A DNA stretch of 36,417 bases from Candidatus Thorarchaeota archaeon (lineage in GTDB: Archaea; Asgardarchaeota; Thorarchaeia; Thorarchaeales; Thorarchaeaceae), in NCBI GenBank assembly GCA_029210805.1, contig JARGGA010000003.1, forward strand, positions 1-36,417. The letters are read 5' to 3'. The notes below the pieces were generated by a model. That model did no database searches and was not told the DNA's origin. It worked only from the letters and a program-made list of their open reading frames with translations. Made by a program: the position numbers and the translations under genes. Positions 14,997 through 27,182 of this stretch are shown one piece after another. The first letter of the stretch is position 1. Each line of letters starts with the position of its first letter.

Positions 14997-15953
14997 TTAG
15001 AGTTCCAATGACTGTTTCAATACCTCGACATTTAGCTCTCCTGCTTCGTAAACTTCATCGTTGGTGATGTCTTTGATAGTGACCTTGGCTGGACTGAAGA
15101 GAAGAGGGTCAACCTTGTAGAAATCGAAATCAAAGCTCTTGAATAGCTTGTAGAAAGGTTGTCCATACTGCTCTGAGTTTGAAGAAGGTGCGTCTTGTGT
15201 CAGCTTCTTCAAGTCATCTCCTTCGTCAGGTCGAATATCATAGTAGGTGGAACCTGCATACAGAATACAGTCGTTTGTAGCACCCATCATCTTGTTATCC
15301 TTCGTACTCACCATCGGCGCAATTGGAGCCACACCATGACCTCTTCTTATCTTCCTTACATCGAAACCAAGTTCATGTAGCTTGTGTGCACCGACCTCAA
15401 CAACCCTAGCTGATATCTGAATCGACCCTGCCAAACAAGCAGTTGGTGCAACTATGAGGTAGAGGTCCTTTGTTTCTATACCACATTTTCCAGCAATGTA
15501 CTCTATCACATTATCAGGTGGAGGAGTCCTTGTTTCAAGAAGCAGTACTCCTACCTTTGCATCATCTTTGTATTCTAGCTCTTTGTAGATTTTCTCTTTT
15601 GCATAGAGTGCCCTTGCAGGTCCAGATCCCATGGCAAAGTACCCATCCTCGTTTATGATCCAACCAGCATACTGCGACCCCATAGTCGAGATTGCAGGCT
15701 CATCAGTTGAAACAATCACAGAGGGGAGCGTAACATCTCCAATTGTGACCTCAGACAGTTTGACAACACCATACCCACCCAGACAGACCTCGCCTAGTAG
15801 CCTTCCAAGTTCATCTGTGCCAGTAACTTCTATTCCAGCATCAATGATAGTAGCTCCATTCCCTGATTTTGTCACTGTACAGTCGAGTTTCTCTGCGTTG
15901 TTCATCATCTCTTCTACAATCTCAAGTCCTTTCTCGTTCACACTAATTGTCAT
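14997..15953 (-). CDS. mch: Methenyl-H4MPT cyclohydrolase
   Basis: GSQYAGW, YFAMGSGPARAL, QISARVVE and DFYKVDPLLFSPA. Confidence 0.96.
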   Translation of the reverse strand: MTISVNEKGLEIVEEMMNNAEKLDCTVTKSGNGATIIDAGIEVTGTDELGRLLGEVCLGGYGVVKLSEVTIGDVTLPSVIVSTDEPAISTMGSQYAGWIINEDGYFAMGSGPARALYAKEKIYKELEYKDDAKVGVLLLETRTPPPDNVIEYIAGKCGIETKDLYLIVAPTACLAGSIQISARVVEVGAHKLHELGFDVRKIRRGHGVAPIAPMVSTKDNKMMGATNDCILYAGSTYYDIRPDEGDDLKKLTQDAPSSNSEQYGQPFYKLFKSFDFDFYKVDPLLFSPAKVTIKDITNDEVYEAGELNVEVLKQSLEL

Positions 15954-15963
15954 AGAATATCCC

Positions 15964-16818
15964 CTAGGATTCATGTTCCATCATTTTTGCACGCACATAG
16001 ATCTCTTCTCTGGGGTCTCCCTCAGCAAAGTCTCCCATGTACTTGACCCATTTCTCAGAGGAAGGTATCTCCTCCGAAATGAAGTCTGGTCTTCGTGATT
16101 TTACATACCGGATGAAATAATTCGTGAATTCTCTCTCAGAAGTTCCACTTGGTAGGTATGTTGGAATGAGTGAATCTATCTTGCCGAGTACAATTATCAT
16201 TCCTTTTTTCGCAGATACGCCAGGTCTCTCAGCAAGGTTTCCACAGACAACGATAGTACCCCCTTGCATTTTTGCCGCTGCAAGTTCGCCTACATTCCCT
16301 TTCACCGCAAGGAAACCCTTACGCATCTGAGATGCTGCTTCCCTTCCTACATTTCCTGCAACATAGACCCGACCACCCATCATTCCTTCGAGGCTACCGC
16401 GATAACCAGCGCAGATCCTGTCAGCCGCATCCCCTTCTATCTGGATGTTTCCTCCCACCATCTCTGCAGCAGCCCAGGCATCAACAGAACCTTTCACGTG
16501 TATCCTGCCTGCAATCATTTCTGCACCAAGATACATGCCCACATCACCATTGACGGTGATTTTGCCCCCGTTCATGCCCTTTCCAATCATCTTCACTTTC
16601 TTGAGGTCACCTTCCACAACAATCTCGGTATCATCAGGAGTTTCTCCTGCTTCGCCATTGATGTCGAAAAAGTCCTTCAGTTCAAGCATCTGATTCCCTT
16701 GAAGGACTGGAAGTTTCCCGATCTCTTCCAGACTCTTGCCTGCAAAGTGACTGGGTGTGACTGTGTCCGCCTCAATAGGCAAGTCAAGCTCGGTTTTTAG
16801 AGTAAGATTCACAGTCAT
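15964..16818 (-). CDS. fwdC: Formylmethanofuran dehydrogenase subunit C
   Basis: PIEADTVTP, GXGXG beta-helix repeats (MNGGKITVNGDVG) and AGYRG. Confidence 0.95.
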   Translation of the reverse strand: MTVNLTLKTELDLPIEADTVTPSHFAGKSLEEIGKLPVLQGNQMLELKDFFDINGEAGETPDDTEIVVEGDLKKVKMIGKGMNGGKITVNGDVGMYLGAEMIAGRIHVKGSVDAWAAAEMVGGNIQIEGDAADRICAGYRGSLEGMMGGRVYVAGNVGREAASQMRKGFLAVKGNVGELAAAKMQGGTIVVCGNLAERPGVSAKKGMIIVLGKIDSLIPTYLPSGTSEREFTNYFIRYVKSRRPDFISEEIPSSEKWVKYMGDFAEGDPREEIYVRAKMMEHES

Positions 16819-17043
16819 ATGCCTAACCAACTCAAAGAATTCTGATTACTACCCCACCTCATAAATACTATGCAAAACCTCTCTCTTACAATTGTGAGTG
16901 AACTGGAAGAAACTTCTGTGCACTGTCCCGTCCAAGGTATGTACCCTTCTCGCAATCCCGAAGACGAAATCAAGTTACTCCACCTCTAAGAAATCTCTTG
17001 TATTCTATTGAATTGAAGGTGCGATTGTTTGAGTAGTAGGGTG

Positions 17044-18201
17044 TCATGTTTTCCGTCGTCTATAATATCCAAGTCCAACTATAACAATCACTCCGATAGA
17101 TGAAACAATTATCAAAAAGACGGGGTCAGTAATCCCCATCCAGAGGCGACACTCAAGGAGATTTCCTTGCGTGGTCCGTAAAATGATGCCCTCGCTACCC
17201 ACTGCCCAACCATGGGTTTGATTGGTGAAGTCCACTGACATCAATCTGCCAGTGACTTCCTCAGAAACTGACTGCTCATACCACGTGTTTCCACCATCAG
17301 GTGTGTACATGATGGGGATTTGGTCACCAACAATCCATCCATGAGTGTCATCCAGAAAGAAGATATCGGAGAGATACGGAGGAGTATGTCTAGGCAAAGG
17401 AGCGCGGTTTGGAACAGGTAGATTAATCCATGTCGTGTAGTCCTCCGAGTACATGAGTTCGTTGTCTGCCACCGCCAATGATTTGCCATTGTCTAGAGCA
17501 ACCAGACTCCACCCACCATAGTCATGGACCTGTTCCCAGGCTTCTGCAAGATCCTCGCTATAATAGATTCCAAACCATCCTATGGCAAGTACCCTAGAGT
17601 CATCTATGAACTCAATGTATCGAGGAAGATCATCCTCAAAGTCCCATCCTGGTACAGCACTCCATGTCAGTCCACCATCAGTGGTCTTGTACAATGTTTC
17701 CATGGTAGCGGTCCAGCCATGGGTCTGATTAAAGAATTCCACCAAGCTATAACTTGCTTGGACAGAGGCAGGTTCAGAAATAAACCAGTCTGAATCACTA
17801 TTATTCGTAAAAAAGAGCTTTTCTTTACCGGTAATCCACACTGTTTGATCATCGACTATCTCAAGGTCTACAACATATTGATCATATTCCTCTAACTGCT
17901 CTGTCCAAGTATCCCCCCCATTTTCAGTGTGCAGAACTATTAAGATATCAGGACCATTCTGCTCTATGAAACCAGTAGTCCATCCATGAGTATAATTAAG
18001 AAAGCCCACATCTCGAAAAACCGCTTCATCGTACCCTGAATTGAGATGTTCCCAGACCAAAGGCGAATCTGGATGTCCAGCAGTACCTGTGTGAGCCTGC
18101 ACCTGCAGAACACCCTTAAAAGACATCATAAGTAGTAGAGTCAAGACCAACATAAAACGTGCTCTTTGGAGTAATCCCACTCGAACCAACCTACTTCTCA
18201 T
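17044..18201 (-). CDS. YCF48/BNR (Asp-box) beta-propeller surface protein, paralog 1
   Basis: Repeated TxDGGxTW and FxNxTHGW blades; signal peptide; C-terminal TM helix followed by RRRKT. Confidence 0.88.
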   Translation of the reverse strand: MRSRLVRVGLLQRARFMLVLTLLLMMSFKGVLQVQAHTGTAGHPDSPLVWEHLNSGYDEAVFRDVGFLNYTHGWTTGFIEQNGPDILIVLHTENGGDTWTEQLEEYDQYVVDLEIVDDQTVWITGKEKLFFTNNSDSDWFISEPASVQASYSLVEFFNQTHGWTATMETLYKTTDGGLTWSAVPGWDFEDDLPRYIEFIDDSRVLAIGWFGIYYSEDLAEAWEQVHDYGGWSLVALDNGKSLAVADNELMYSEDYTTWINLPVPNRAPLPRHTPPYLSDIFFLDDTHGWIVGDQIPIMYTPDGGNTWYEQSVSEEVTGRLMSVDFTNQTHGWAVGSEGIILRTTQGNLLECRLWMGITDPVFLIIVSSIGVIVIVGLGYYRRRKT

Positions 18202-18240
18202 CCTGTATCGTAGAAAATCTGCCTTAGCCCAGTTATTTTT

Positions 18241-18324
18241 CTAGTCAGGCAGGCCACCACCACCAGGAAGTGTCACGTATGCAACAATAATTACTAGAAA
18301 GGCTGTGAAATCCCTTTTTCTCAT
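18241..18324 (-). CDS. Unannotated 27-aa ORF MRKRDFTAFLVIIVAYVTLPGGGGLPD (secreted peptide or internally deleted gene)
   Basis: Translated by hand. ATG at 18324 has GAGGGA upstream and TAG is at 18241-18243. The N-terminus is signal-like and the C-terminus matches ORF 24850-25098. Confidence 0.6.
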   Translation of the reverse strand: MRKRDFTAFLVIIVAYVTLPGGGGLPD

Positions 18325-18715
18325 TCTTCGTCCCTCATGCCATAGATTCGCCTGAAATGTATTCCGCCCTTAGCATATTTCTTGATGAGAACCTATCAAT
18401 TACGAATGCAATCTCCTAGCTATATTTGCTTCAATTCAGGGAGTTTGCAACATTTAATCTACTTCAAATTTAATAAATTAGATGTTTCAAGGAGTAATAA
18501 AGAGCATTTTCAGAAACCAATTACTAAAATTCGGAAAGTCATTTTGGAAGAGATGACTCTTTTTGTGAAATCGGTACGGCATCACTTGATACACTCGGAC
18601 TTTCTACACAAGGTAAATGTGTTATGAAGATATACAATACTATGCATTTTATGGGAAGGCGGAACAAAGAAATGGTGGGAGTGTAATCATTTGAGCTTGG
18701 TTAAGGTGGATAATT

Positions 18716-19612
18716 TTGGAGATTAACGGTATACCCATCGAGGACACATTTGCTGAAGCCTTCAGCATGCACATGAATCGTACCATTATTACAGCATATA
18801 GTGAGGAATGGGCTCGTGTGACTGCTGCTGAAACCACTGGATTTGGGACATCGGTCATTATGGCACCTGCAGAGGCAGGTATAGAGTATGTCATGAAGGA
18901 AAGCGAAACTCCCGATGGCAGGCCAGGTGTTAGAGTGATATTTGCCACTGGTAAGGACTCTGATCTTGAGAAACAGTTGCTAGCTAGACTTGGACAGTGC
19001 GTTCTGACAAGCCCAACTGCCTGCGCGTATGACGACACTCCAAATGCCAAAGAGACCTACCGTGTTGGAAAATTGATTTCGATGTTTGGCGATGGTCACC
19101 AGATAAAGAAGGGTCCTTTAGATGGCAGAGTTTTATGGATGTTACCAAGGATGAGTGGCACATTCGTCATTCAGGAGAGCTTTGGAAGGGTTAAAGGAGT
19201 AGCGGGTGGAAATGTGATATATTCGTGCCGCGACATCAAAGCAGGAATGGACAGTGGTATGGCAGCTGTCAAGGCAATCGAAAAGGTCGAGGGTGCCTAT
19301 ACGCCATTCCCCGGCGGGCTTGTAGGCTCCGGATCAAAGCCATCGTCAAGATACAAGGGTATGTTCGCGTCAACTAACGAGAGGTACTGTCCATCATTGC
19401 GTGCCATGGTACCTGATACCTTTGTGCCCGAAGGGGCTGAATTCGTTCAAGAGATTGTTATCAATGGTCTTACTGAGGAAGCAGTTGCCGAAGCAACCAA
19501 GGTGGCGATTCAGGAAGTTTGTAAGTTCGATGGCGTTATGAAAGTAAGCGCGGGCAACTACGGCGGAAAACTAGGCAAGTTCCAGATACATTTGCATCAA
19601 CTCGGACTATAG
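18716..19612 (+). CDS. ftr: Formylmethanofuran:H4MPT formyltransferase
   Basis: IEDTFAEAF, TPDGRPG, GQCVLTSPT, GVAGGN and SAGNYGGKLG. Confidence 0.97.
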   Translation: MEINGIPIEDTFAEAFSMHMNRTIITAYSEEWARVTAAETTGFGTSVIMAPAEAGIEYVMKESETPDGRPGVRVIFATGKDSDLEKQLLARLGQCVLTSPTACAYDDTPNAKETYRVGKLISMFGDGHQIKKGPLDGRVLWMLPRMSGTFVIQESFGRVKGVAGGNVIYSCRDIKAGMDSGMAAVKAIEKVEGAYTPFPGGLVGSGSKPSSRYKGMFASTNERYCPSLRAMVPDTFVPEGAEFVQEIVINGLTEEAVAEATKVAIQEVCKFDGVMKVSAGNYGGKLGKFQIHLHQLGL

Positions 19613-19681
19613 TCTGGATATGAATCTGGTGCATCTTCGAAACCTTTATCTCGAAAAACCAAACGCACTCCGAATGCTGAT

Positions 19682-19758
19682 GCCCCAGTAGCTCAGCTGG
19701 TTAGATCGCATCCTTGGTAAGGATGAGGCCGCGAGTTCGAATCTCGCCTGGGGCTCCA
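19682..19758 (+). tRNA. tRNA-Thr(GGT), CCA encoded
   Basis: Acceptor GCCCCAG/CTGGGGC, anticodon arm CATCC-TTGGTAA-GGATG, T arm GCGAG-TTCGAAT-CTCGC. Confidence 0.95.
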
Positions 19759-19764
19759 TTTCTT

Positions 19765-20079
19765 CTACTCTTTCATCTTCTCAATCTTGAAAACAACTGG
19801 TTTTAGTCCGTCGCCACAGGGCTGATAGGTATACCCAGGTGCTGGAAATTCATAGTCACCGTCATTGAAATATACCATCAAAGTAGTGTAGAGGTCCTGC
19901 CAAGCCCTGCCACATAGTCCTTCAGGTCTGTCGAGATGATGATCCATGATGAATTCCTCACCTACTTCATGACCGCATACTGGAATTGGATTACCATTCC
20001 ATGTAATTCCATGGTCCGGGCCGAACACGTCTTCTGTAGTAAATTTCCTTACAACTGTAATTTTTACATTAGGACTCAT
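19765..20079 (-). CDS. TIGR04076-family small Cys protein
   Basis: VKITVVRK...C...GEEF...PEGLCGRAW...CGDGLKPVVFKIEK pattern. Confidence 0.8.
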   Translation of the reverse strand: MSPNVKITVVRKFTTEDVFGPDHGITWNGNPIPVCGHEVGEEFIMDHHLDRPEGLCGRAWQDLYTTLMVYFNDGDYEFPAPGYTYQPCGDGLKPVVFKIEKMKE

Positions 20080-20182
20080 TCTTCTATCTCCTTGTATTCT
20101 CTCTTATTCAGAGAAAAATGGAATATGACTTTTAGCAGTTGCATACTCGGCAACGGAATGAGAACAATTCTTGGTTGGTGCT

Positions 20183-20698
20183 TTATTCTGCACCTATCCA
20201 GTCTGGCGAAAACCGAAGCCCACAGACCGCATCTGCACCATGGCCATACTGCTCTGCTGAGTTTATGTGCGTCTGTATTCTTTCAATGAAATGGCTCAAA
20301 GTAGCGGGGTTTACACTCAATTCAACAGTAAAATCATCAAGAATGAAGGGCTCATTGTCCATGGCATCGAATCCAAGCCTAACGACAAGCATGTCCAACC
20401 ACTGAATTTGTACTCCATTTTCTTTTCCAAAAGACACATGGTCAAAACCTGCAGGTGGATTACACTTGTACTTCTTTGTTCCCTTCCCGTAGGTCTGAAA
20501 GAGTATCAAGAGAGCCTGAAGGCTTTCACCTAGAGTTCTAAGGGCAGCATCATCTCCTATGATGTACACTTCATCCCTCCACTTGTCGCTCCTGTTGTCC
20601 TTCACACGCCAGATTTGGAAATTCAAATCGGTAAATTCATTCCTGGTTTTCACATCACTCATACTATCGACTCCTTTGCTAGTGGCGGGTATTCTCAT
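20183..20698 (-). CDS. Hypothetical protein
   Basis: 171-aa ORF; true start probably the internal MSDVK. Confidence 0.65.
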   Translation of the reverse strand: MRIPATSKGVDSMSDVKTRNEFTDLNFQIWRVKDNRSDKWRDEVYIIGDDAALRTLGESLQALLILFQTYGKGTKKYKCNPPAGFDHVSFGKENGVQIQWLDMLVVRLGFDAMDNEPFILDDFTVELSVNPATLSHFIERIQTHINSAEQYGHGADAVCGLRFSPDWIGAE

Positions 20699-21065
20699 GA
20701 TTTTTCATAAGGTCATCTGTATCATCGCAGGTGTCTTGTCTCAATTCGTCAGACGCTCTTAGTTTTAGTAATGCTCTCACAACAAGATAGCTGCCCACAA
20801 TAGACAGTCCAATAATCCCAATAATAAGGCCCACAATGAATGTTAGTACTTGGTCAATCATGTAGTATTCTGAGGTAGCAGTTAATATTGTAAGTAAGGA
20901 CATCGGAATCGTGAGTATCCCTATTCCAGTACGGAGTTCAGCAAGATGGGTTCTTTTTTCAGCTTCAATTGTTCGTATCACTGCTAGTGTTGTTCTCAAA
21001 TCACCCGTTTCTCTTGCTACCTTTGCTATCTTTCTAACATCATTCTTTGGCAAATCATTCACCAT
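20679..21065 (-). CDS. Small membrane protein, DUF202/YidH-like
   Basis: AEKRTHLAELRTGIG motif followed by two TM helices. Confidence 0.65.
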   Translation of the reverse strand: MVNDLPKNDVRKIAKVARETGDLRTTLAVIRTIEAEKRTHLAELRTGIGILTIPMSLLTILTATSEYYMIDQVLTFIVGLIIGIIGLSIVGSYLVVRALLKLRASDELRQDTCDDTDDLMKNHENTRH

Positions 21066-21308
21066 CTAGGGTTCATCAAGTAGACTATCTTTTCGTACTC
21101 CAATCTTTTTCTTGCCGATAAGCCTACGTGCTTCATCTGGACCCACAAGTTCAGATATTCTATGCAATGCCTCCGGGTCATCTTCACGATCCAACCATTT
21201 CTCAATTTGCTTGTACACCTCTGGTGAAAGATCCCTGGCTAGTTTCTTCTTGCGTTCTTTCTTTCCAAGGTCAAAATCATCAGGGCCGAGCATGCTCATG
21301 GGATGCAC
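21066..21308 (-). CDS. Hypothetical charged protein
   Basis: 80-aa ORF abutting the next gene in operon fashion. Confidence 0.6.
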   Translation of the reverse strand: MHPMSMLGPDDFDLGKKERKKKLARDLSPEVYKQIEKWLDREDDPEALHRISELVGPDEARRLIGKKKIGVRKDSLLDEP

Positions 21309-21485
21309 CTACTTAATTCTCAGGGGCTAATGTTATGACCTTTCCTCGTATGGAAGAAATGAAAAAAGGGTGTTTGTACCCAAATCCAAATAGGATATAT
21401 TATAGTAGAAGTGTAGTTCAGTGGTACCCGAAACGTACAACTCCGTTATTCTTATAACCGGAGATGTCCGACGACAGCAACGCAT

Positions 21486-21623
21486 GGGTTGGTGGTCTAG
21501 CTTGGCTATGATTCTTGGTTTGGGACTTAGGGTCACTTTGCCCCTTTGCAAGAATCCAAGGGATCCCCGGTTCAAATCCCTTCCTGATTTCCAGCAGGGG
21601 TGAAGATCCGGGCCAGCCCACCA
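21486..21623 (+). tRNA. tRNA-Pro(TGG) with introns at 37/38 (21525-21554) and 59/60 (21577-21606), CCA encoded
   Basis: Acceptor GGGTTGG/CCAGCCC, anticodon stem CTTGG/CCAAG, T stem CCCGG/CCGGG. Both 30-nt inserts form bulge-helix-bulge motifs. TTATAA at 21452 upstream. Confidence 0.93.
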
Positions 21624-21635
21624 CTTAAACACGCA

Positions 21636-22124
21636 CTAAACTTCTTTTCCCTCATCTTTCCAAGGACCAGAAATAATCACAGGTTCTGTCTTTAGAATGA
21701 GTACAATACCAACCACCAATTGAATTGGAACTGGACCCATGTAGAGAAAAATGCTATGCATATCCAAGGTGTAGAGCATCATTGGAACACCCAACGCCAC
21801 CGGAAAGAGCATGGTCAGCACTCCAATTATATATGCTAGTCTTCTTGATGCCTCTCCTTTGAAACATCGAACAACCTGAATTGCAAAAAGAATGCTGAAG
21901 ATTCCTGTTGTTGCCGCAGTGAGTGTATATGCAAGATCAAATGCATGGACGGCATAGAATTCTCCATTCTGAAGTCTAAGAACCCAAATCATTGAGTAAA
22001 TGGCGGTTTCAGCACCCCTTTCTGAGCCACCTTGCCAGAACACTCCAAAAGGCACTACAAGTGTCAATACTGTCATAAGATATGCAATTCGCCGTCTGGT
22101 CAAATCCTCCAGATTCATCATCAA
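21636..22124 (-). CDS. Membrane protein (about 4 TM helices)
   Basis: Hydrophobic segments; overlaps the upstream gene's stop (ATGA). Confidence 0.7.
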   Translation of the reverse strand: MMMNLEDLTRRRIAYLMTVLTLVVPFGVFWQGGSERGAETAIYSMIWVLRLQNGEFYAVHAFDLAYTLTAATTGIFSILFAIQVVRCFKGEASRRLAYIIGVLTMLFPVALGVPMMLYTLDMHSIFLYMGPVPIQLVVGIVLILKTEPVIISGPWKDEGKEV

Positions 22125-23524
22125 TACCAGCCTGCACTCTGATAGAAATGTATTGAGAACATCATAACTCCTGAGAGGGTTTCATTATCAGTAGCCACGA
22201 TTTTCAGAACATAAGTAAAAGAGGTACCGGGGAAATATTCTAGATTCCAGCCTCCTCCCATTCCTCCCCAATCGCCCTCCGTAACATTTCTTGAATCGCA
22301 GAGATTTCTCCGAGCTGTTTCATTCTCAGCATAAAATTCGCTGGAAGTTACGTTCAGCATTTTGTAGAAGTAAGTAACTTCAGAAGGTGCACTTCCCCAG
22401 TTGATGAGACTGCAGTCATAATATAGATTGTAAAATTGATCATATTGAGTTTGTTGTACCTCACACGAGAAGCTATACCACTCACCAAGATGTATTGGTT
22501 CACCATTGTCAGGGCTCTGATGGAACGTAATTGTTGTGCCTTCGCGCACTGCATTTTGGTATGAAAAGGCAACATTGCTCATTGTCACGAGTAGAAATCC
22601 AACTGCAATTATAAGGCCGGCACGTCTAAACCTCAAGCGGAGTGCAAGTTGTTTGACTGAATCTGTGCTGAAGCCTTCCCTACGCGAAGTCCATACTTTT
22701 TCAGCCTCTGCTGAATCTGATGTCATATCCCAATACTCTGAATTATGTTGTAGTATTTTGATGCTTGTTGTAATGCATATCAAAGAAACACAGACTAATG
22801 AACACAAAGCATAAAGAATTGACCCCCAAGAGGGTTCAAATCCGATGAGGGTCGACAACGAATGACCACTGGGGTGTTCATAATCAGAAAGGATTACCGC
22901 AAATGCCTTGGCTAAATTGTGAGGACTATAAACTGCAATGCTCCTTGTCAGAGACATATACAAGTTAGTTGGAGCCCATCCAATCAGCGTTGCCAAGTAT
23001 ATGGTTACCGCACACCCGACAGATGTAGCAAGTATGATATCATCGGTCAAAACTGCAAGAAAGATTCCAATGGATGTCAGAATCAATGAGATTGCCAATG
23101 ATGATACCAGCACAACTGGCAGATAAATCAGATACCCTGTTCCCATAGGACTGTAGAAAGTAGTTCCCGCAATTATTGGTTCAATGAACAAAACGATTGT
23201 AGACGATATAGTGAACATTGTTGCAAGAATGTAGGCTTCGAGCAATCTCCGGAAAAATACACGAGCTGGTGAAATTCCAGATTGAAGCATTGAATGAGCC
23301 TGTCTTCTAGCAAATGATGAAGAAACAGAAATACCTGCCGCAAGAAAGAACGGCAGACCAAGGCCAATTGAATAGGATATAACGTTCACAGAATTAAGAA
23401 GTACCGCAAATTCATCTGTATAGCTCACATGTGGGCGTGTGGCATAGCAAAGGAACAGTGTAACAATTGAAGTAATACCCCATACAATATACCATCTCTT
23501 TCTATTGTCAAGCTGCGCTAGCAT
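22121..23524 (-). CDS. ABC-2-type permease-like membrane protein with C-terminal extracellular domain
   Basis: About 7 TM helices with LQSGISPARVFFRRLL and YSPHN loops, followed by a sequon-rich C-terminal domain. Confidence 0.6.
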   Translation of the reverse strand: MLAQLDNRKRWYIVWGITSIVTLFLCYATRPHVSYTDEFAVLLNSVNVISYSIGLGLPFFLAAGISVSSSFARRQAHSMLQSGISPARVFFRRLLEAYILATMFTISSTIVLFIEPIIAGTTFYSPMGTGYLIYLPVVLVSSLAISLILTSIGIFLAVLTDDIILATSVGCAVTIYLATLIGWAPTNLYMSLTRSIAVYSPHNLAKAFAVILSDYEHPSGHSLSTLIGFEPSWGSILYALCSLVCVSLICITTSIKILQHNSEYWDMTSDSAEAEKVWTSRREGFSTDSVKQLALRLRFRRAGLIIAVGFLLVTMSNVAFSYQNAVREGTTITFHQSPDNGEPIHLGEWYSFSCEVQQTQYDQFYNLYYDCSLINWGSAPSEVTYFYKMLNVTSSEFYAENETARRNLCDSRNVTEGDWGGMGGGWNLEYFPGTSFTYVLKIVATDNETLSGVMMFSIHFYQSAGWY

Positions 23525-23605
23525 GATCTTTACCCCGGTACCACATCTTTTGAAAATCGTATAGTTCCTAGATAGTACTTGCGGTTGTCAGAAATTTGCT
23601 TTGAA

Positions 23606-23621
23606 CGGGCCGGCCCACCAC
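23606..23621 (+). repeat. att-like copy of the tRNA-Pro 3' end
   Basis: cgggccggcccaccac versus cgggccagcccaccac at 21609-21624. Confidence 0.75.
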
Positions 23622-23627
23622 ATCAAC

Positions 23628-24812
23628 TCATTTTTCGCTAGCTTCTAATTGAGCTGGTTTAGATTCACCTTTTCGCTTTCGATAGATGACTCCTCCAATA
23701 ACTGTCACAACCACCAGTGATAACGCTCCTATAATTGTGAGGAAAACTGGATCGCCCATGCCCCGCCATAGGCGGGAAACCAAAACATCCCCCCTCTCAG
23801 TGTGGAGAATTCTACCGTTGTACCCAGAAGCCCAACCATGTGTTGCATTGAGAAAATCTACTGACATCAGTCTTGATAAGCCGATATCAACTCCCTGTGA
23901 ATACCAAGAAATACCTCCATCCACTGTATGTATCACTGCTGTTTGCGACCCTACAATCCATCCTGTTGTATCATCAATGAATTGAACATCTGTCAAGTAG
24001 GGTTTTCGAAATCCTGGAATTGGTGAGTTGCTTGGAACAGGTGTTTCTTCCCACGAAGTAGCAGTTCTTGTTTCAGCTAACATATTATCTGCAACCGCCC
24101 ATCCAACATTTCTCGATGCAAATGCCAATGCCCAACCTCCCTTATCAAAAACCAGTTGCCATGACATTCCTCCGTCTTCGCTATGATATATTCCATAAAA
24201 TCCTATGACATCCATAATCTCTGGAGTGTGAAAGTATATCCTTCTAATGGTGTCTTGATATGTCCATTCAGTACAAACATTCCAGGTAACACCTGCATCA
24301 AATGTACGGAAAAGTTGCTGGTTTGTTGACGCCCATCCGTGTGAACTGTTAGCGAATCCTACTGTTGTGAAAAGGCTTGTTACATTTTCAAATTCCACAT
24401 AATTCCAAGTGATTCCACCATCTCTTGAGTTAGCCAAAATTGCCATTCCAGCAATCCAAATTGAATTTGGACTAGATATCGTTAGTTGGTTAAACCATTG
24501 CGAACTATCACTGAATCGGGTGACCCAGGTGTCGCCCCCATCTACAGTTGAGAGGATTATTCCGTTACCCAACCCATCCGAGCTTTGCCCTATGACCCAT
24601 CCATGTGTATTGTTTACGAAATCTATGTCCCAAAAGATTGCTTGATTGTATCCAGAATTTTGATCAACCCAAATTTGATCTGTTTGACCTGTTGTTTGAG
24701 CACTAGTGAAGAAAACAAAGTGTGAGAGGATGATTAGAGTAGCAAATAACATTGTAGCAGTTCTACGTCCTCTTGTTGGCATTGAGATAGTAATACCATC
24801 CATGTGTTTCAT
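23628..24812 (-). CDS. YCF48/BNR (Asp-box) beta-propeller surface protein, paralog 2
   Basis: Same blades as 17044-18201 (NSGY...F...THGW, PYLTD...GWIVG, RLW.G..DPVFL). The start is probably ATG 24812, 24803 or 24782, because the longer ORF overlaps the upstream gene. Confidence 0.85.
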   Translation of the reverse strand: MKHMDGITISMPTRGRRTATMLFATLIILSHFVFFTSAQTTGQTDQIWVDQNSGYNQAIFWDIDFVNNTHGWVIGQSSDGLGNGIILSTVDGGDTWVTRFSDSSQWFNQLTISSPNSIWIAGMAILANSRDGGITWNYVEFENVTSLFTTVGFANSSHGWASTNQQLFRTFDAGVTWNVCTEWTYQDTIRRIYFHTPEIMDVIGFYGIYHSEDGGMSWQLVFDKGGWALAFASRNVGWAVADNMLAETRTATSWEETPVPSNSPIPGFRKPYLTDVQFIDDTTGWIVGSQTAVIHTVDGGISWYSQGVDIGLSRLMSVDFLNATHGWASGYNGRILHTERGDVLVSRLWRGMGDPVFLTIIGALSLVVVTVIGGVIYRKRKGESKPAQLEASEK

Positions 24813-24849
24813 CCTCTCATTTTTTCTTATACTTTGATAGCCCTCGATG

Positions 24850-25098
24850 CTATTCTGGTAGTGGGTCTCCTCCGCTACCACCTCCACCAGTACCTGGTAG
24901 AGTGACGTATGTTTCATCACTTCCCAGGTAATGACCCTGTGTGTCATACGCCTGAACTTTTACCTTCATTTGTACGTAGCCCTGAAGAAGTGACCATGAC
25001 ACATAGTAATCGCCACTTGTATACGGTGTAGGTTCACAAGCGATTTTGTTCTCTCTAATCTGATTCTTTGCATCATCAAACCAATCACGTATCGACAA
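24850..25098 (-). pseudogene. Probable C-terminal fragment of a protein ending YVTLPGTGGGGSGGDPLPE
   Basis: Beta-strand-like segment YYVSW...VKVQAYD plus a Gly-rich tail. No signal peptide, a weak TTG start, and the 5' end lies near the island border. Confidence 0.55.
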
Positions 25099-25194
25099 AT
25101 CTAGGTTTCTCTCCTTGCTCCTAGATTCATACGCTTTTGACCCCTTATGAAATCATCTGAGAAGAAACACTCGCAAATGGTGATTGACAAAGGC

Positions 25195-25209
25195 GCCAGC
25201 CCACCACTT
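25195..25209 (+). repeat. Second att-like copy of the tRNA-Pro 3' end
   Basis: gccagcccaccactt is identical to 21612-21626. Confidence 0.75.
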
Positions 25210-25313
25210 TGTTATTCTGACAATGAGTCACCTTTTACGCCATCCGGAAAGACATTTATATTTCTCGATTATCCGATGATTGGAATTGGTCCTGCAATTA
25301 CGAGGTGAGATGC

Positions 25314-26360
25314 ATGAGTACCGAGCAGCATTCTGAGAGCGAAAAGAAACTAAGTATCTTTGAAAAGTATCTGCCAGTGTGGGTCGCAGTATGCATGCTC
25401 GTAGGAATCATTCTCTCGCAGGTAGTTCCAGGTATTGGCGAAGCAATTGACTCGTGGAAATTAGGCGAAATATCAATTCCAATTGGTATCTGTCTCTTCC
25501 TCATGATGTACCCAGCTATGCTGAATGTACAGTCTTCCGAACTGAAGAAACTAGGGAGAAATCCGAAACCTATCATTCTCACACTGTTTTCGAATTGGAT
25601 CATAGCTCCAATTGTAGGATTTGCCCTGGCAAACCTGTTTCTTCCCGGAAACGAACAGCTGATTGTTGCTATCATTCTACTATCTTCTAGTCCCTGCACC
25701 GCAATGGTTCTTGTCTGGGGATATCTTGCAGAGGGGAATCAGGAACAGAACATAATCAATACCAGTCTAAACACAGCAACCATTCTCTTCCTCTACGCAC
25801 CGATTGTCGTTCTTCTCACTGGAATCTCAGCAATTCCGCTTGATCGTTGGACATTGTTCATTTCGGTCCTCGTGTTTATCGGGATTCCACTGATTCTTGG
25901 TTTAATCAGCAGAAAATCGCTTGTCAACTGGAAAGGAATCGACTGGTTCGAAAAGAAGTATCGTCCAGCGGTTGGCAACATTGCTCTACTAGCTCTTCTA
26001 ACAACCTTAATCATACTCTTCTCTCTCAACGGTATGGTCATGCTTGAGAATCCGGATCTCCTGGTTTTCGTATCGATTCCACTTCTAATTGGATTTGCAA
26101 TCGTTGTGGGTTACAACCTGCTGATAACAAGGATGGCAAAGCTTGCATACAGAGAGGGAGTGATTACGGTAATAATCGGTTCATCGAGTCATTTTGAGAT
26201 TGCCATTGCAACTGCGATTTCTATCTATGGCGTAGGTTCGATTGCCGCACTTGGCACAACCATGGGTCTCTTTTGGGAAGTGCCTATCATGTTAGGTATT
26301 GTCTACTTGGGGAAATATCTTCGCGCAAAGGGCTTTTGGAAAGAAGAACCTACTGAGTGA
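25314..26360 (+). CDS. acr3: ACR3-family arsenite efflux transporter
   Basis: LSIFEKYLPVWV, MMYP, NWIIAP, PCTAMVLVW, SHFEIAIA and EVP; GAGGTGA RBS before ATG 25314. Confidence 0.93.
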   Translation: MSTEQHSESEKKLSIFEKYLPVWVAVCMLVGIILSQVVPGIGEAIDSWKLGEISIPIGICLFLMMYPAMLNVQSSELKKLGRNPKPIILTLFSNWIIAPIVGFALANLFLPGNEQLIVAIILLSSSPCTAMVLVWGYLAEGNQEQNIINTSLNTATILFLYAPIVVLLTGISAIPLDRWTLFISVLVFIGIPLILGLISRKSLVNWKGIDWFEKKYRPAVGNIALLALLTTLIILFSLNGMVMLENPDLLVFVSIPLLIGFAIVVGYNLLITRMAKLAYREGVITVIIGSSSHFEIAIATAISIYGVGSIAALGTTMGLFWEVPIMLGIVYLGKYLRAKGFWKEEPTE

Positions 26361-26447: not shown

Positions 26448-27182
26448 ATGCCGGTCATGTCAGTTCAATCATCTGTAAGGGAGCGGTTGGCCCGTCGCAT
26501 TGCAGGTGAGATTGCCTTATCCGATTATCCTGGACAGACGATGCGAGTCTGGAGAGAACGCTTCAGATTACCTCAGATTGTATTGGCTGAATATCTTGGA
26601 ATTAGTCCCAGTGTGATTAGTGATTATGAATCCGGACGTAGAAAATCTCCTGGAACTTCAACAATCCGACGTTTTGTTATGGCACTCCTTTCACTTGATG
26701 AACAGAATGGAGGACAGGTTGTTTCAGCCTTCGTGCGATTAATGGATGTCAGTCTAGTGGATCTAAACATTGTCTTGGCAATGAGTGATTTTTCTGCTAG
26801 CATGACAAGTAGGGAATTTTGTGACAAGTTGAAGTGTACAGTCAAGAGTGGAGAGGAGTATCTTGACAAGGAAATCTATGGATACACCCTTGTTGATGTT
26901 GAACGAGCAGTGCGAGAGCTTGACAGTGAGGCATTCCTCAAACTATTTGGAGCAACCACCGAACGATGTCTGATATTTACGAACGTAAATACTGGCCGAG
27001 CTCCAATGATTGCAATCAAATCACAGGAGTTCAAACCTACCCTTGTCGTTCTTCATGGCGTGGGTAAGATCGACCGACTAGCTTTGGAACTATCTGAGCA
27101 GATGCGAATACCTCTTGCAGTGAGCAAGATTAGCTCAATAGATACGCTACTTCGAGAATTACGTGCCTTTGGCCCTGACTAG
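26448..27182 (+). CDS. Archaeal XRE-family HTH regulator (COG1709-like)
   Basis: RIAGEI...SPSVISDYESGRRKSPG and IFTNVNTGRAPMIAI. Confidence 0.85.
   Translation: MPVMSVQSSVRERLARRIAGEIALSDYPGQTMRVWRERFRLPQIVLAEYLGISPSVISDYESGRRKSPGTSTIRRFVMALLSLDEQNGGQVVSAFVRLMDVSLVDLNIVLAMSDFSASMTSREFCDKLKCTVKSGEEYLDKEIYGYTLVDVERAVRELDSEAFLKLFGATTERCLIFTNVNTGRAPMIAIKSQEFKPTLVVLHGVGKIDRLALELSEQMRIPLAVSKISSIDTLLRELRAFGPD

What the first reader, a model, noticed from the sequence alone, without database searches (positions are those of the whole stretch)
17044..25098. Recurrent module: ORF ending YVTLPG..GGG..LP[DE] directly upstream of a membrane-anchored Asp-box beta-propeller
Seen: two diverged YCF48/BNR propeller paralogs sit at separate loci. 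Each is preceded, about 40 nt upstream on the same strand, by an ORF with the same unusual C-terminus: AYVTLPGGGGLPD* (18241-18324, missed by the ORF track) and TYVTLPGTGGGGSGGDPLPE* (24850-25098). The codons differ while the residues are kept, which indicates selection on the protein. Established: Vps10/sortilin receptors are Asp-box propellers with one C-terminal TM helix that bind ligand C-termini. Inference: a co-inherited secreted partner and surface receptor, chaperone or immunity pair, with the Gly-rich tail as the recognition or sorting signal. The alternative is that both upstream ORFs are remnants of one larger secreted gene, which would still be a conserved uncharacterised pair.
Basis: partly seen in the sequence, partly recalled or inferred. 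Interest (0 to 1): 0.8.

Follow-up and report, generated by a model that had tools for sequence, protein, structure and literature searches.

The report
Relics of an esterase-propeller gene pair
The two small reading frames are leftover 3' ends of a large secreted esterase gene that, in Thorarchaeota, normally sits directly in front of a membrane-anchored beta-propeller gene; the gene pair is real and unstudied, but the two copies in this window are broken.

Summary
Two Ycf48-like propeller paralogs (39% identical) are each preceded, 39 and 37 nt upstream, by an ORF ending YVTLPG-Gly run-LP[DE]-stop. That hexapeptide occurs only 3 times in the six-frame translation of the genome, each time just upstream of a propeller.

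Both ORFs are 3' remnants of a ~600-aa secreted esterase gene with five parts: N-terminal domain, DUF676/DUF7379 alpha/beta hydrolase, TSP3 repeats, FN3-like C-terminal domain, and a disordered Gly tail. An intact copy (614 aa) lies upstream of a third propeller on contig C313 of the same genome.

Among Thorarchaeota species genomes, 11 of 12 tail-bearing esterase genes are followed at once by this propeller. The twelfth is followed by a Kelch propeller with the same membrane topology. All 35 database relatives carry the tail.

In the window the 82-aa ORF keeps only 45 aa of the last domain plus the tail, and the 27-aa ORF keeps about 12 aa. Both modules lie in lineage-specific insertions; one is 1.77 kb and flanked by an 11-bp direct repeat. 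Truncation points in other genomes range from 10 nt to 1.1 kb of retained gene, which fits decay.

Tail-to-propeller docking remains an untested inference.

The parts
17044..18201 (-). Propeller paralog 1 (385 aa): signal-like N-terminus, Ycf48-like BNR/Asp-box propeller, C-terminal TM helix and a basic end (YYRRRKT)
   Evidence: Pfam PF14870 74.3 bits against cut-off 27. The family profile aligns to Ycf48 chain 8am5_S over query 50-340. Five Asp-box-like motifs and hydrophobic segments at both ends.
18202..18240 (-). 39-nt spacer between the relic's stop codon and the propeller 1 ATG
   Evidence: Read from the sequence. Intact pairs have spacers of 0 to about 60 nt, many with GGTG or GGAG motifs before the start codon.
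18241..18324 (-). 27-aa ORF. Only its last ~12 residues (AYVTLPGGGGLPD) are recognisable as the 3' end of the esterase gene; the rest is not clearly homologous
   Evidence: The DNA alignment to the closest relative's partner gene (G013:C63) covers 18308-18223. About 85% of bases in the tail codons match, by my count on the printed alignment; the flanks match less well.
16864..16874 (.). Left copy of the 11-bp direct repeat AATACTATGCA that flanks the inserted segment carrying propeller 1
   Evidence: the repeat finder family D7, spacing 1772. A same-genus genome (L043) has fwdC and ftr 113 nt apart, with a single copy of this site and no insert.
18636..18646 (.). Right copy of the 11-bp direct repeat; the inserted DNA is 16875-18635
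23628..24812 (-). Propeller paralog 2 (394 aa from the ATG at 24812), same architecture as paralog 1
   Evidence: Pfam PF14870 97.3 bits and BNR 31.2 bits. Alignments. TM segment at residues 351-379.
24813..24849 (-). 37-nt spacer
24850..25098 (-). 82-aa ORF (TTG start). Residues ~24-82 are the last three strands of the esterase's C-terminal FN3-like domain plus the Gly tail. The first 23 residues have no homolog, and there is no signal peptide
   Evidence: tblastn of the intact 614-aa partner finds only 25029-24895 in this contig (aa 558-602, 86.7% identity, E 4e-17). Alignment A1. No hydrophobic window.
21636..26360 (.). Variable island holding propeller 2 and its relic, two membrane-protein genes without a family (21636-22124, 162 aa; 22121-23524, 467 aa) and an ACR3/SBF transporter gene (25305-26360)
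   Evidence: In 15 listed genomes of the same family, the conserved element at ~21440-21580 and the HTH gene (26448-27182) lie 52-489 nt apart. Here they are ~4.8 kb apart. Pfam results.

Best explanation
**What the two ORFs are.** They are decayed 3' ends of a gene for a ~600-aa secreted esterase. In Thorarchaeota that gene forms a two-gene unit with a membrane-anchored, seven-bladed Ycf48-like propeller encoded directly downstream.

**The intact esterase.** An intact example is C313:22529-24373 of the same genome. It has:
- a signal-like N-terminus;
- a ~140-aa N-terminal domain with invariant His and Cys;
- a DUF676/DUF7379/PGAP1-like alpha/beta hydrolase with invariant Ser-Asp-His;
- Ca-binding TSP3 repeats;
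- an FN3-like beta-sandwich;
- a disordered tail: YVTLPG, 3-11 Gly, then (D)P-x-P-[EDFLI] at the C-terminus.

**What happened in this window.** Two copies of the unit were placed in lineage-specific insertions. One is a 1.77-kb insert with an 11-bp target duplication between fwdC and ftr. The other is in a variable island next to a conserved RNA-like element. In both copies the esterase body has been lost and the propeller gene stays whole. I read the 27-aa and 82-aa ORFs as non-functional relics (about 0.75). They survive because deletions that reach the propeller's start region are not tolerated and because the truncations are recent.

**How the intact unit works (inferred, not shown).** The esterase is exported and acts at the cell surface together with the propeller. 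My preferred mechanism (about 0.3) is that the flexible Gly tail, with its acidic Pro-rich end and possibly the FN3-like domain, docks onto the anchored propeller and so holds the enzyme at the membrane. An alternative is that the propeller acts as a maturation factor for the esterase, as Ycf48 does for D1.
For: **Relic status.**
- An intact 614-aa partner with the same tail lies 40 nt upstream of a propeller paralog on C313.
- The window keeps only aa 558-602 of that protein.
- The C-terminal domain model has 7 strands, and the 82-aa ORF covers the last three.
- On the propeller tree, propeller 1 is sister (100/100) to a propeller with a long partner (G013:C63). Propeller 2 groups (100/100) with C313 (intact partner) and G013:C44. 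Truncated states need at least 5 changes among 8 rows.
- Truncation points differ between loci: about 10 nt kept in G009:C43, ~36 nt in window locus 1, 63 aa in G005:C25, 82 aa in window locus 2, 109 aa in C645, 122 aa in G020:C5, and 363-371 aa in L075 and G013:C44.

**The pair is real.**
- 11 of 18 propeller loci that were found with the propeller query and have upstream sequence carry the tail ORF.
- Of 14 loci found with the C-domain query, 12 have the tail. Eleven of these are followed by the BNR propeller and 1 by a Kelch propeller with a signal peptide and C-terminal TM helix.
- The single Hodarchaeota homolog has neither tail nor propeller.
- 35 of 35 database relatives carry the tail.
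- Ser269, Asp386 and His409 are invariant in 28 full-length sequences.

**Insertions.**

**Precedent for the mechanism.** Ycf48, a membrane-tethered seven-bladed propeller, holds the C-terminal tail of its client D1 (PMC10403576, passages read).
Against: **Against pure decay.**
- The 54-56 homologous codons of the 82-aa ORF show no excess of amino-acid changes. dN is 0.095 to C313 and 0.159 to G013:C44, against 0.117 between those two, with omega about 0.09-0.10 (one search gives dN 0.074 and dS 1.19 over 46 codons). The relic is therefore either young or still constrained.
- At locus 1 the tail codons match the nearest relative better than the flanks do (about 85% against 55-67%, my count).
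- The 27-aa ORF has a GAGGG motif 7 nt before its ATG and a basic-then-hydrophobic N-terminus. Use as a micro-protein is not excluded.

**Against the Ycf48-like docking idea.**
- Only 1 of the 6 Ycf48 Arg-patch positions is Arg in propeller 1.
- The esterase C-domain is far more conserved (82-84% identity) than the adjacent propellers (44-51%). This gives no sign of paired co-variation.
- Propellers persist without the esterase in many loci, so their function does not depend on it.
Confidence: 0.8

Rival explanations
1. The short ORFs are working micro-proteins. After the esterase body was lost, the tail was kept, at locus 1 behind a new basic and hydrophobic N-terminus that could insert into or cross the membrane. 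It would then serve as a ligand, plug or regulator of the neighbouring propeller.
For: The tail codons at locus 1 match the nearest relative better than the flanks do (my count). The 27-aa ORF has an ATG preceded by GAGGG and a hydrophobic stretch at residues 6-26. The 82-aa ORF shows no rise in dN.
Against: The 82-aa ORF has no export signal and only a partial domain. The G005:C25 relic (63 aa from stop to stop) contains no Met. In G009:C43 the tail itself is gone while the propeller is nearly identical to one with a full partner. The hydrophobic codons of the 27-aa ORF are T-rich, as expected from AT-rich spacer DNA. No second genome with the same short ORF was found (the four short database hits begin inside the domain and come from contigs of 735-4594 nt).
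Confidence: 0.1
2. The relic DNA is kept for what it does as DNA or RNA, not as protein. It would be the leader or promoter region that the propeller gene needs once its upstream operon partner is gone.
For: In intact pairs the spacer is short (0 to about 60 nt), carries GGTG or GGAG motifs and in one case overlaps stop and start (TAATG). The propeller therefore looks co-transcribed with the esterase gene. After truncation, transcription must start in or upstream of the relic. Every deletion seen stops before the spacer.
Against: In G009:C43 only about 10 nt of the esterase gene are kept, so the tail codons are not needed for this role. No archaeal promoter scan was available, and no transcript data could be obtained.
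Confidence: 0.25
3. The shared C-terminus is a chance resemblance between two unrelated short ORFs.
For: The 27-aa ORF shares only 12-13 residues.
Against: The genome holds three hexapeptide hits, all in the same position relative to paralogous genes. The same tail lies upstream of propellers in other genomes. The 82-aa ORF matches the intact gene at E 4e-17.
Confidence: 0.01

Closest known systems
Ycf48/HCF136, photosystem II assembly factor (Pfam PF14870)
   Same: A seven-bladed BNR-type propeller on the outer face of a membrane and tethered to it. The family profile aligns over the whole propeller to solved Ycf48 (E 3.2e-27). Ycf48 holds the C-terminal tail of its client D1, including its last four residues (PMC10403576, passages read). 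This is the nearest precedent for a tail-binding role.
   Different: The NCBIfam Ycf48 equivalog cut-off is not reached (80 and 92 bits against 326). Only 1 of 6 Arg-patch positions is Arg. The anchor is a C-terminal TM helix, not an N-terminal lipid. The neighbouring gene encodes an esterase. The lineage is archaeal, and no photosystem is expected in it (my knowledge).
Sortilin/Vps10 receptors
   Same: An Asp-box propeller ectodomain followed by one TM helix. Binding of ligand C-termini is my recollection and was not tested here.
   Different: The Pfam score is below the cut-off (16.4 against 33) and only one of the two propellers scores at all. No sortilin chain appears among the PDB sequence matches. 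The ectodomain of about 310 aa aligns to seven-bladed Ycf48, not to a ten-bladed propeller.
Lipase plus lipase-specific foldase operons of Pseudomonas and Burkholderia (recalled, not tested)
   Same: A secreted alpha/beta hydrolase gene sits directly next to a gene for a membrane-anchored accessory protein that faces the same compartment.
   Different: Foldases are helical and anchored at the N-terminus. There is no sequence or fold relation to a propeller.
Cohesin-dockerin and other enzyme-anchor systems (recalled, not tested)
   Same: The enzyme carries a C-terminal module behind a flexible linker, and a separate anchored protein is encoded nearby.
   Different: No homology. Binding is not shown here.
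DUF676/PGAP1-like serine esterases with bacterial TSP3 repeats
   Same: The intact partner passes the Pfam cut-offs for DUF676 (38.6 against 20.3), DUF7379 (35.5 against 33), PGAP1 (25.3 against 24.3) and TSP3_bac (29.4 against 25). It has GHSLGG and an invariant Ser-Asp-His.
   Different: It also has an N-terminal domain with an invariant His and Cys, a C-terminal FN3-like domain and a Gly tail. The window ORFs hold none of the hydrolase.

Membership tests
Pfam PSII_BNR (Ycf48-like propeller) | HMM score above the gathering cut-off | tested here: met
   74.3 and 97.3 bits against 27.
Ycf48 proper (PSII assembly factor) | NCBIfam equivalog score | tested here: not met
   80.1 and 91.8 bits against cut-off 326.
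Ycf48 proper (PSII assembly factor) | Six-residue Arg patch (R180, R196, R215, R219, R220, R237 of Synechocystis Ycf48; PMC10403576) | tested here: not met
   In the phmmer alignment of propeller 1 to chain 8am5_S, only the R180 position is Arg (R194). The other five positions read F, D, W, S and A (positions counted by me).
Sortilin/Vps10 | Pfam Sortilin-Vps10 score above the gathering cut-off | tested here: not met
   16.4 bits against 33 for propeller 1; no hit for propeller 2.
DUF676/PGAP1-like serine esterase (applies to the intact partner, not to the window ORFs) | HMM above cut-off, plus a GxSxG nucleophile with conserved Asp and His | tested here: met
   S269, D386 and H409 are invariant in 28 sequences.
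DUF676/PGAP1-like serine esterase (window ORFs 18241-18324 and 24850-25098) | Presence of the hydrolase domain | tested here: not met
   No Pfam hit for the 82-aa ORF. tblastn finds only aa 558-602 of the intact protein in the window.
FN3/Ig-like beta-sandwich (partner C-terminal domain) | Fold similarity | tested here: inconclusive
   Model pLDDT 76.9 with 7 strands. Best Z is 9.5 (rmsd 2.6 A, 97 aligned), tied with many FN3 domains. Foldseek found no match at E<=0.001.
Clan CD (caspase-like) cysteine peptidase (partner N-terminal domain) | Caspase-like fold with a His-Gly and Ala-Cys dyad after beta-strands | tested here: inconclusive
   G-H-G and L-A-C are invariant. Model pLDDT is 89. Foldseek's top rows include caspase-3, -7, -9, -11, SAVED-CHAT and the RTX cysteine protease domain at E 1e-4 to 2e-3, mixed with flavodoxin-like folds. 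VIA-align ties SAVED-CHAT (Z 10.6) with LacI-type domains. The dyad pattern itself is my recollection.

The most novel reading that the evidence does not exclude
The Gly linker with its (D)P-x-P-[ED] C-terminus, behind an FN3-like domain, could be a new archaeal docking signal. It would tether a secreted esterase to a membrane-anchored beta-propeller encoded next to it, either the BNR type or, in one genome, a Kelch type. That would be a surface-display or maturation system of Asgard archaea comparable in logic to cohesin-dockerin or to Ycf48 and the D1 tail. A bolder corollary is that the tail-only mini-ORFs in this window are kept as ligands for orphaned propellers.
Probability: 0.25. Interest if true: 0.7.

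Novelty: new variant of a known kind. Interest (0 to 1): 0.35.

Why it matters
**For annotation.** The two short ORFs should be marked as gene remnants, not as new small proteins. The two propeller loci should be marked as parts of recent insertions.

**For biology.** The work brings out an unstudied, lineage-restricted two-gene unit of Thorarchaeota: a multi-domain secreted esterase with a conserved disordered C-terminal tail, plus a membrane-anchored propeller.
- The propeller has multiplied to about ten copies in this genome.
- The esterase copies decay: among the six copies seen on contigs C313, C548, C144, C645 and C459 (two), one is intact, one is cut by the contig end, one is an odd 212-aa version, and three are short relics.
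- In one genome a Kelch propeller with the same topology takes the place of the BNR propeller. This is the best hint that the coupling is functional.

If the tail is a docking signal, it would be a simple and testable example of how Asgard archaea hold exo-enzymes at the cell surface.

Tried and rejected
- **Co-folding.** I co-folded the C313 propeller ectodomain (residues 36-352, alignment A4) with the esterase C-domain plus tail (residues 490-614, alignment A3). Result: no verdict, score 0.01 against a mark of 0.32, and the controls were not run. This is no evidence either way.
- **Expression data.** No sequencing run was listed for window:16800-25300, and no RNA holder was listed.
- **Repeats or mobile-element ends beside the relics.** blastn of 25030-25304 and 18283-18715 against the genome found only the query regions themselves. 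No terminal inverted repeats of note were found in 16800-18700.
- **A general lineage-wide Gly-Pro tail.** In this genome, looser patterns found only the partner family plus a chaperonin-like and an SRP54-like Gly/Met tail.
- **Stand-alone short forms in the protein database.** There were 4 hits of 79-88 aa. All start inside the domain and come from contigs of 735-4594 nt, so they are most likely fragments.
- **A retroposition-like origin of the 1.77-kb insert.** I considered this because of the 5' truncation and the target duplication. I dropped it: there is no A-rich end, and about 310 nt of unrelated sequence lie upstream of the relic inside the insert.
- **The conserved element at ~21484-21623.** Neither ARAGORN (with or without introns) nor Rfam calls it.
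- **Literature.** 'Thorarchaeota' + 'esterase' + 'propeller' gave 0 papers. 'DUF7379' gave 0. 'Asgard' + 'Ycf48' gave 1 preprint on Heimdallarchaeota photosynthesis; I saw only the listing and did not use it.

Full report
**1. What is in the window**

On the minus strand lie two genes for Ycf48-like BNR/Asp-box propellers.
- Propeller 1 is at 17044-18201 (385 aa). Propeller 2 is at 23628-24812 (394 aa).
- Both match Pfam PSII_BNR well above its cut-off of 27 bits, at 74.3 and 97.3 bits.
- They are 39% identical over 375 residues.
- The ORF listing offers a longer frame for propeller 2, up to 24947. The paralog alignments begin only at residue 61 of that frame and fit the ATG at 24812.
- Each protein has a hydrophobic N-terminus, five Asp-box-like motifs, and a hydrophobic C-terminal segment followed by basic residues.

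- 18241-18324 encodes MRKRDFTAFLVIIVAYVTLPGGGGLPD*.
- 24850-25098 encodes an 82-aa product ending ETYVTLPGTGGGGSGGDPLPE*.
- The stop codons lie 39 and 37 nt before the propeller start codons.

**2. Is it more than chance?**

Yes.
- In the six-frame translation of the whole 4.03-Mb assembly, Y[VIL]T[LIVM]PG occurs three times. Two hits are the window ORFs. The third is in a 622-codon frame on contig C313 that also ends 40 nt upstream of a propeller paralog.
- ORFs that end in at least three Gly followed by at most nine residues with at least two Pro number four in the genome, and all are of this kind.
- A looser pattern adds only a chaperonin-like and an SRP54-like tail.

**3. What the ORFs are**

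The C313 frame encodes a 614-aa protein, P0001. It has these parts:
- a hydrophobic N-terminus;
- DUF676, DUF7379 and PGAP1-like alpha/beta-hydrolase matches and bacterial TSP3 repeats;
- a C-terminal stretch of about 110 aa that ends ...IYVTLPGGGGGGGGPVPE*.

The window retains only small pieces of such a gene.
- tblastn of P0001 against the genome finds a single segment in the window's contig: 25029-24895, matching aa 558-602 at 86.7% identity, E 4e-17.
- Nothing of the first 557 residues is present in any frame.
- Alignment A1 shows that the 82-aa ORF joins the family at ...TPYTSGDYYVSW. Its first 23 residues are unrelated.
- The 27-aa ORF aligns only over AYVTLPGGGGLPD.
- An AlphaFold model of the C-terminal 125 residues (40-row alignment, pLDDT 76.9) is a seven-strand beta-sandwich with the last 11 residues disordered. 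The 82-aa ORF therefore holds about three of seven strands, and it has no hydrophobic N-terminus.
- By fold the sandwich is FN3/Ig-like. The best Z is 9.5 and it is tied among many FN3 domains. Foldseek found nothing at E<=0.001. This says little about function.

**4. The gene pair elsewhere**

*Within the same genome.* The propeller has 10 matches: one is weak and partial, and one has an internal TAG.
- Five of these have usable upstream sequence and a tail ORF: C459 twice, C313, C548 and C144.
- Four sit within 4-178 nt of a contig end.
- The weak hit on C247 has no tail.
- C645 carries a further 109-codon remnant that ends 41 nt before its contig end. That end overlaps the start of propeller contig C143 by 17 nt.

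*Search with the propeller.* Among 41 genomes of the group, 10 have the propeller. All 10 are in one family; the score is 0 of 16 genomes in the other families of the phylum. Taking only loci found with the propeller query, 11 of 18 with upstream sequence have the tail ORF, 7 or 8 have none (C485 offers only 184 nt), and 4 are cut by contig ends.

*Converse search, with the C-domain.* Species-representative genomes gave 14 loci.
- Twelve have the tail. Eleven of these are followed at once by the BNR propeller (tblastn E 1e-47 to 1e-141).
- The twelfth (L073) is followed by a 378-aa Kelch propeller (PF24681, E 2.7e-63) that also has a signal-like N-terminus and a C-terminal TM helix.
- The two loci without a tail are a broken pair (L082: remnants of both genes) and the only Hodarchaeota homolog (L084). 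L084 ends right after the domain and has no propeller in the 2.2 kb downstream.

*The protein database.* The C-domain finds 35 clusters. Those that carry a name are called Thorarchaeota esterase/lipase or DUF7379 proteins. All 35 end in a Gly run followed by a Pro-rich end such as DPVPE, DPLPE, PPIE, PPPL or HVPF.
- In 28 full-length sequences, Ser269 (in GHSxGG), Asp386 and His409 are invariant, so the enzyme looks active.
- The N-terminal domain has invariant G-H-G and L-A-C.
- Its model (pLDDT 89) gives caspases, SAVED-CHAT and the RTX cysteine protease domain among the top Foldseek rows at weak E-values. These tie with LacI-type and flavodoxin-like folds. That assignment stays open.

*Spacers.* In intact pairs they are short (0 to about 60 nt). 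Many carry GGTG or GGAG a few bases before the start codon. In G020:C5 the stop and start codons overlap (TAATG). The pair looks like one operon.

**5. Both window copies sit in insertions**

*Locus 1.*
- In nine of ten relatives examined, fwdC and ftr are divergent neighbours 82-157 nt apart. In G010 fwdC lies elsewhere in the locus.
- In the same-genus genome G003 the flanks are 92-95% identical to the window, and the 1.77 kb between them is absent.
- The inserted DNA (16875-18635) is flanked by an exact 11-bp direct repeat, AATACTATGCA. The repeat extends imperfectly to 14-15 bp. The uninterrupted relative has the site once.

*Locus 2.*
- It lies in a 4.8-kb stretch between a conserved RNA-like element (~21440-21580) and an HTH gene (26448-27182).
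- In 15 listed genomes of the family, those two features are 52-489 nt apart.
- In G020:C7 a full 987-aa esterase plus propeller sits in the same neighbourhood, with the same flanking small genes and HTH gene.

**6. Decay or function of the relics**

*For decay.*
- The propeller tree places window propeller 1 as sister (100/100) of G013:C63, which has a long partner. It places propeller 2 with C313 (intact partner) and G013:C44 (100/100). Truncated partners are scattered over the tree, needing at least 5 changes for 8 rows.
- Truncation points form a series: about 10 nt kept in G009:C43, whose propeller is almost identical to one with a 575-codon partner; about 36 nt at window locus 1; 63, 82, 109 and 122 codons; and 363-371 codons. 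The G005:C25 remnant has no Met.
- Such a series is what deletions give when they are limited only by the need to spare the propeller's start region.

*Against pure decay.*
- The homologous codons of the 82-aa ORF show dN 0.074 and dS 1.19 against C313 over 46 codons. There is no excess dN relative to G013:C44.
- At locus 1 the tail codons match the nearest relative better than the flanks do (my count).
- The 27-aa ORF has a GAGGG motif before its ATG and a basic-then-hydrophobic start.
- These points fit recent truncation. They do not exclude use of the tail as a small peptide.

I put the relic reading at about 0.75 and the micro-protein reading at about 0.1.

**7. How the intact unit may work**

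*Shown.* The two genes are tightly adjacent. Both products have export-type N-termini. The propeller has a C-terminal anchor. The tail is conserved but disordered. A Kelch propeller of the same topology can take the BNR propeller's place. Tail and propeller are both missing in the one outgroup homolog.

*Inferred.* The esterase acts at the cell surface with the propeller. My preferred mechanism, at about 0.3, is docking of the Gly-linked acidic Pro-rich C-terminus, perhaps together with the FN3-like domain, onto the anchored propeller. A foldase or assembly-factor role is the main alternative.

*Precedent.* The best precedent lies in the propeller's own family. Ycf48 is a membrane-tethered seven-bladed propeller around which the C-terminal tail of D1 wraps, with hydrogen bonds to D1's last four residues (PMC10403576, passages read).

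*Limits of the analogy.*
- Only one of the six Ycf48 Arg-patch positions is Arg in propeller 1.
- The Ycf48 equivalog cut-off is not reached.
- The esterase C-domain is much more conserved (82-84% identity) than the propellers beside it (44-51%).
- Many propellers persist without an esterase.
- The sortilin comparison fails the family test, and the propeller aligns end to end with Ycf48.

**8. Novelty and verdict**

The window shows two broken copies of an uncharacterised Thorarchaeota gene pair, esterase plus propeller.

I found no paper on this pair. The searches were 'Thorarchaeota' + 'esterase' + 'propeller' (0 papers), 'DUF7379' (0) and 'Asgard' + 'Ycf48' (1 unrelated preprint, listing only).

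The relics themselves are ordinary. The pair is a moderately interesting lead whose mechanism is open and can be tested at the bench.

Noticed in passing
window 21484-21623 (+): A conserved element matches many genomes of the family at 90-98% over about 40-140 nt. Its ends can pair as an acceptor stem (GGGTTGG ... CCAGCCC) followed by ACCA, and it holds a GGTTCAAATCC T-loop-like motif (read). Neither ARAGORN, with or without introns, nor Rfam calls it. It may be a tRNA gene with non-canonical introns. The variable island with propeller 2 starts right after it.
   Followed up: partly
L073:3692-4828 (+): In one Thorarchaeota genome the gene after a full, tail-bearing esterase is not the BNR propeller. 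It is a Kelch propeller (PF24681, E 2.7e-63) with the same signal-like N-terminus and C-terminal TM helix.
   Followed up: partly
L011:7350-7802 (-) (N-terminal domain of the intact partner on C313): A ~140-aa domain carries invariant G-H-G and L-A-C motifs. The confident model (pLDDT 89) has caspase, CHAT and RTX cysteine protease domains among the weak top Foldseek rows, tied with other alpha/beta folds. It may be a clan CD-like peptidase domain fused to the esterase.
   Followed up: partly
L035:3565-5888 (+) (G013:C63): Another pair with the same layout. A 325-aa protein with a signal-like N-terminus ends ...TGGGDPWGKDLPF*. It is followed 30 nt later by a 438-aa protein with a prenyltransferase-type alpha/alpha toroid (PF00432, E 1.2e-24), a hydrophobic stretch near its C-terminus and a basic end.
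   Followed up: no
window 21636-23524 (-): Two membrane-protein genes (162 aa and 467 aa, several hydrophobic segments each) lie downstream of propeller 2. Neither has a Pfam or NCBIfam match. The 162-aa gene has a paralog at 74% DNA identity on contig C468.
   Followed up: no
G000 contigs C8, C485, C575, C143, C645: Several propeller and esterase copies sit at contig ends, so the family probably breaks the assembly. C8 and C485 carry nearly identical propellers (tree branches 0.019 and 0.075), and the C485 copy has an internal TAG. The end of C645 overlaps the start of C143 by 17 nt.
   Followed up: partly
L035:7667-9688 (-) (G013:C63): The esterase gene beside the closest relative of propeller 1 is split into two frames of 165 and 485 codons. 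This is either a frameshift or an assembly error.
   Followed up: no
window 14997-19612: Genes of the methanopterin-linked C1 pathway frame locus 1. ftr (18716-19612) has clear Pfam matches and the fwdC-like gene (15964-16830) has a GXGXG match. I read 14997-15974 as methenyl-H4MPT cyclohydrolase from its sequence only; that is recalled, not tested.
   Followed up: no
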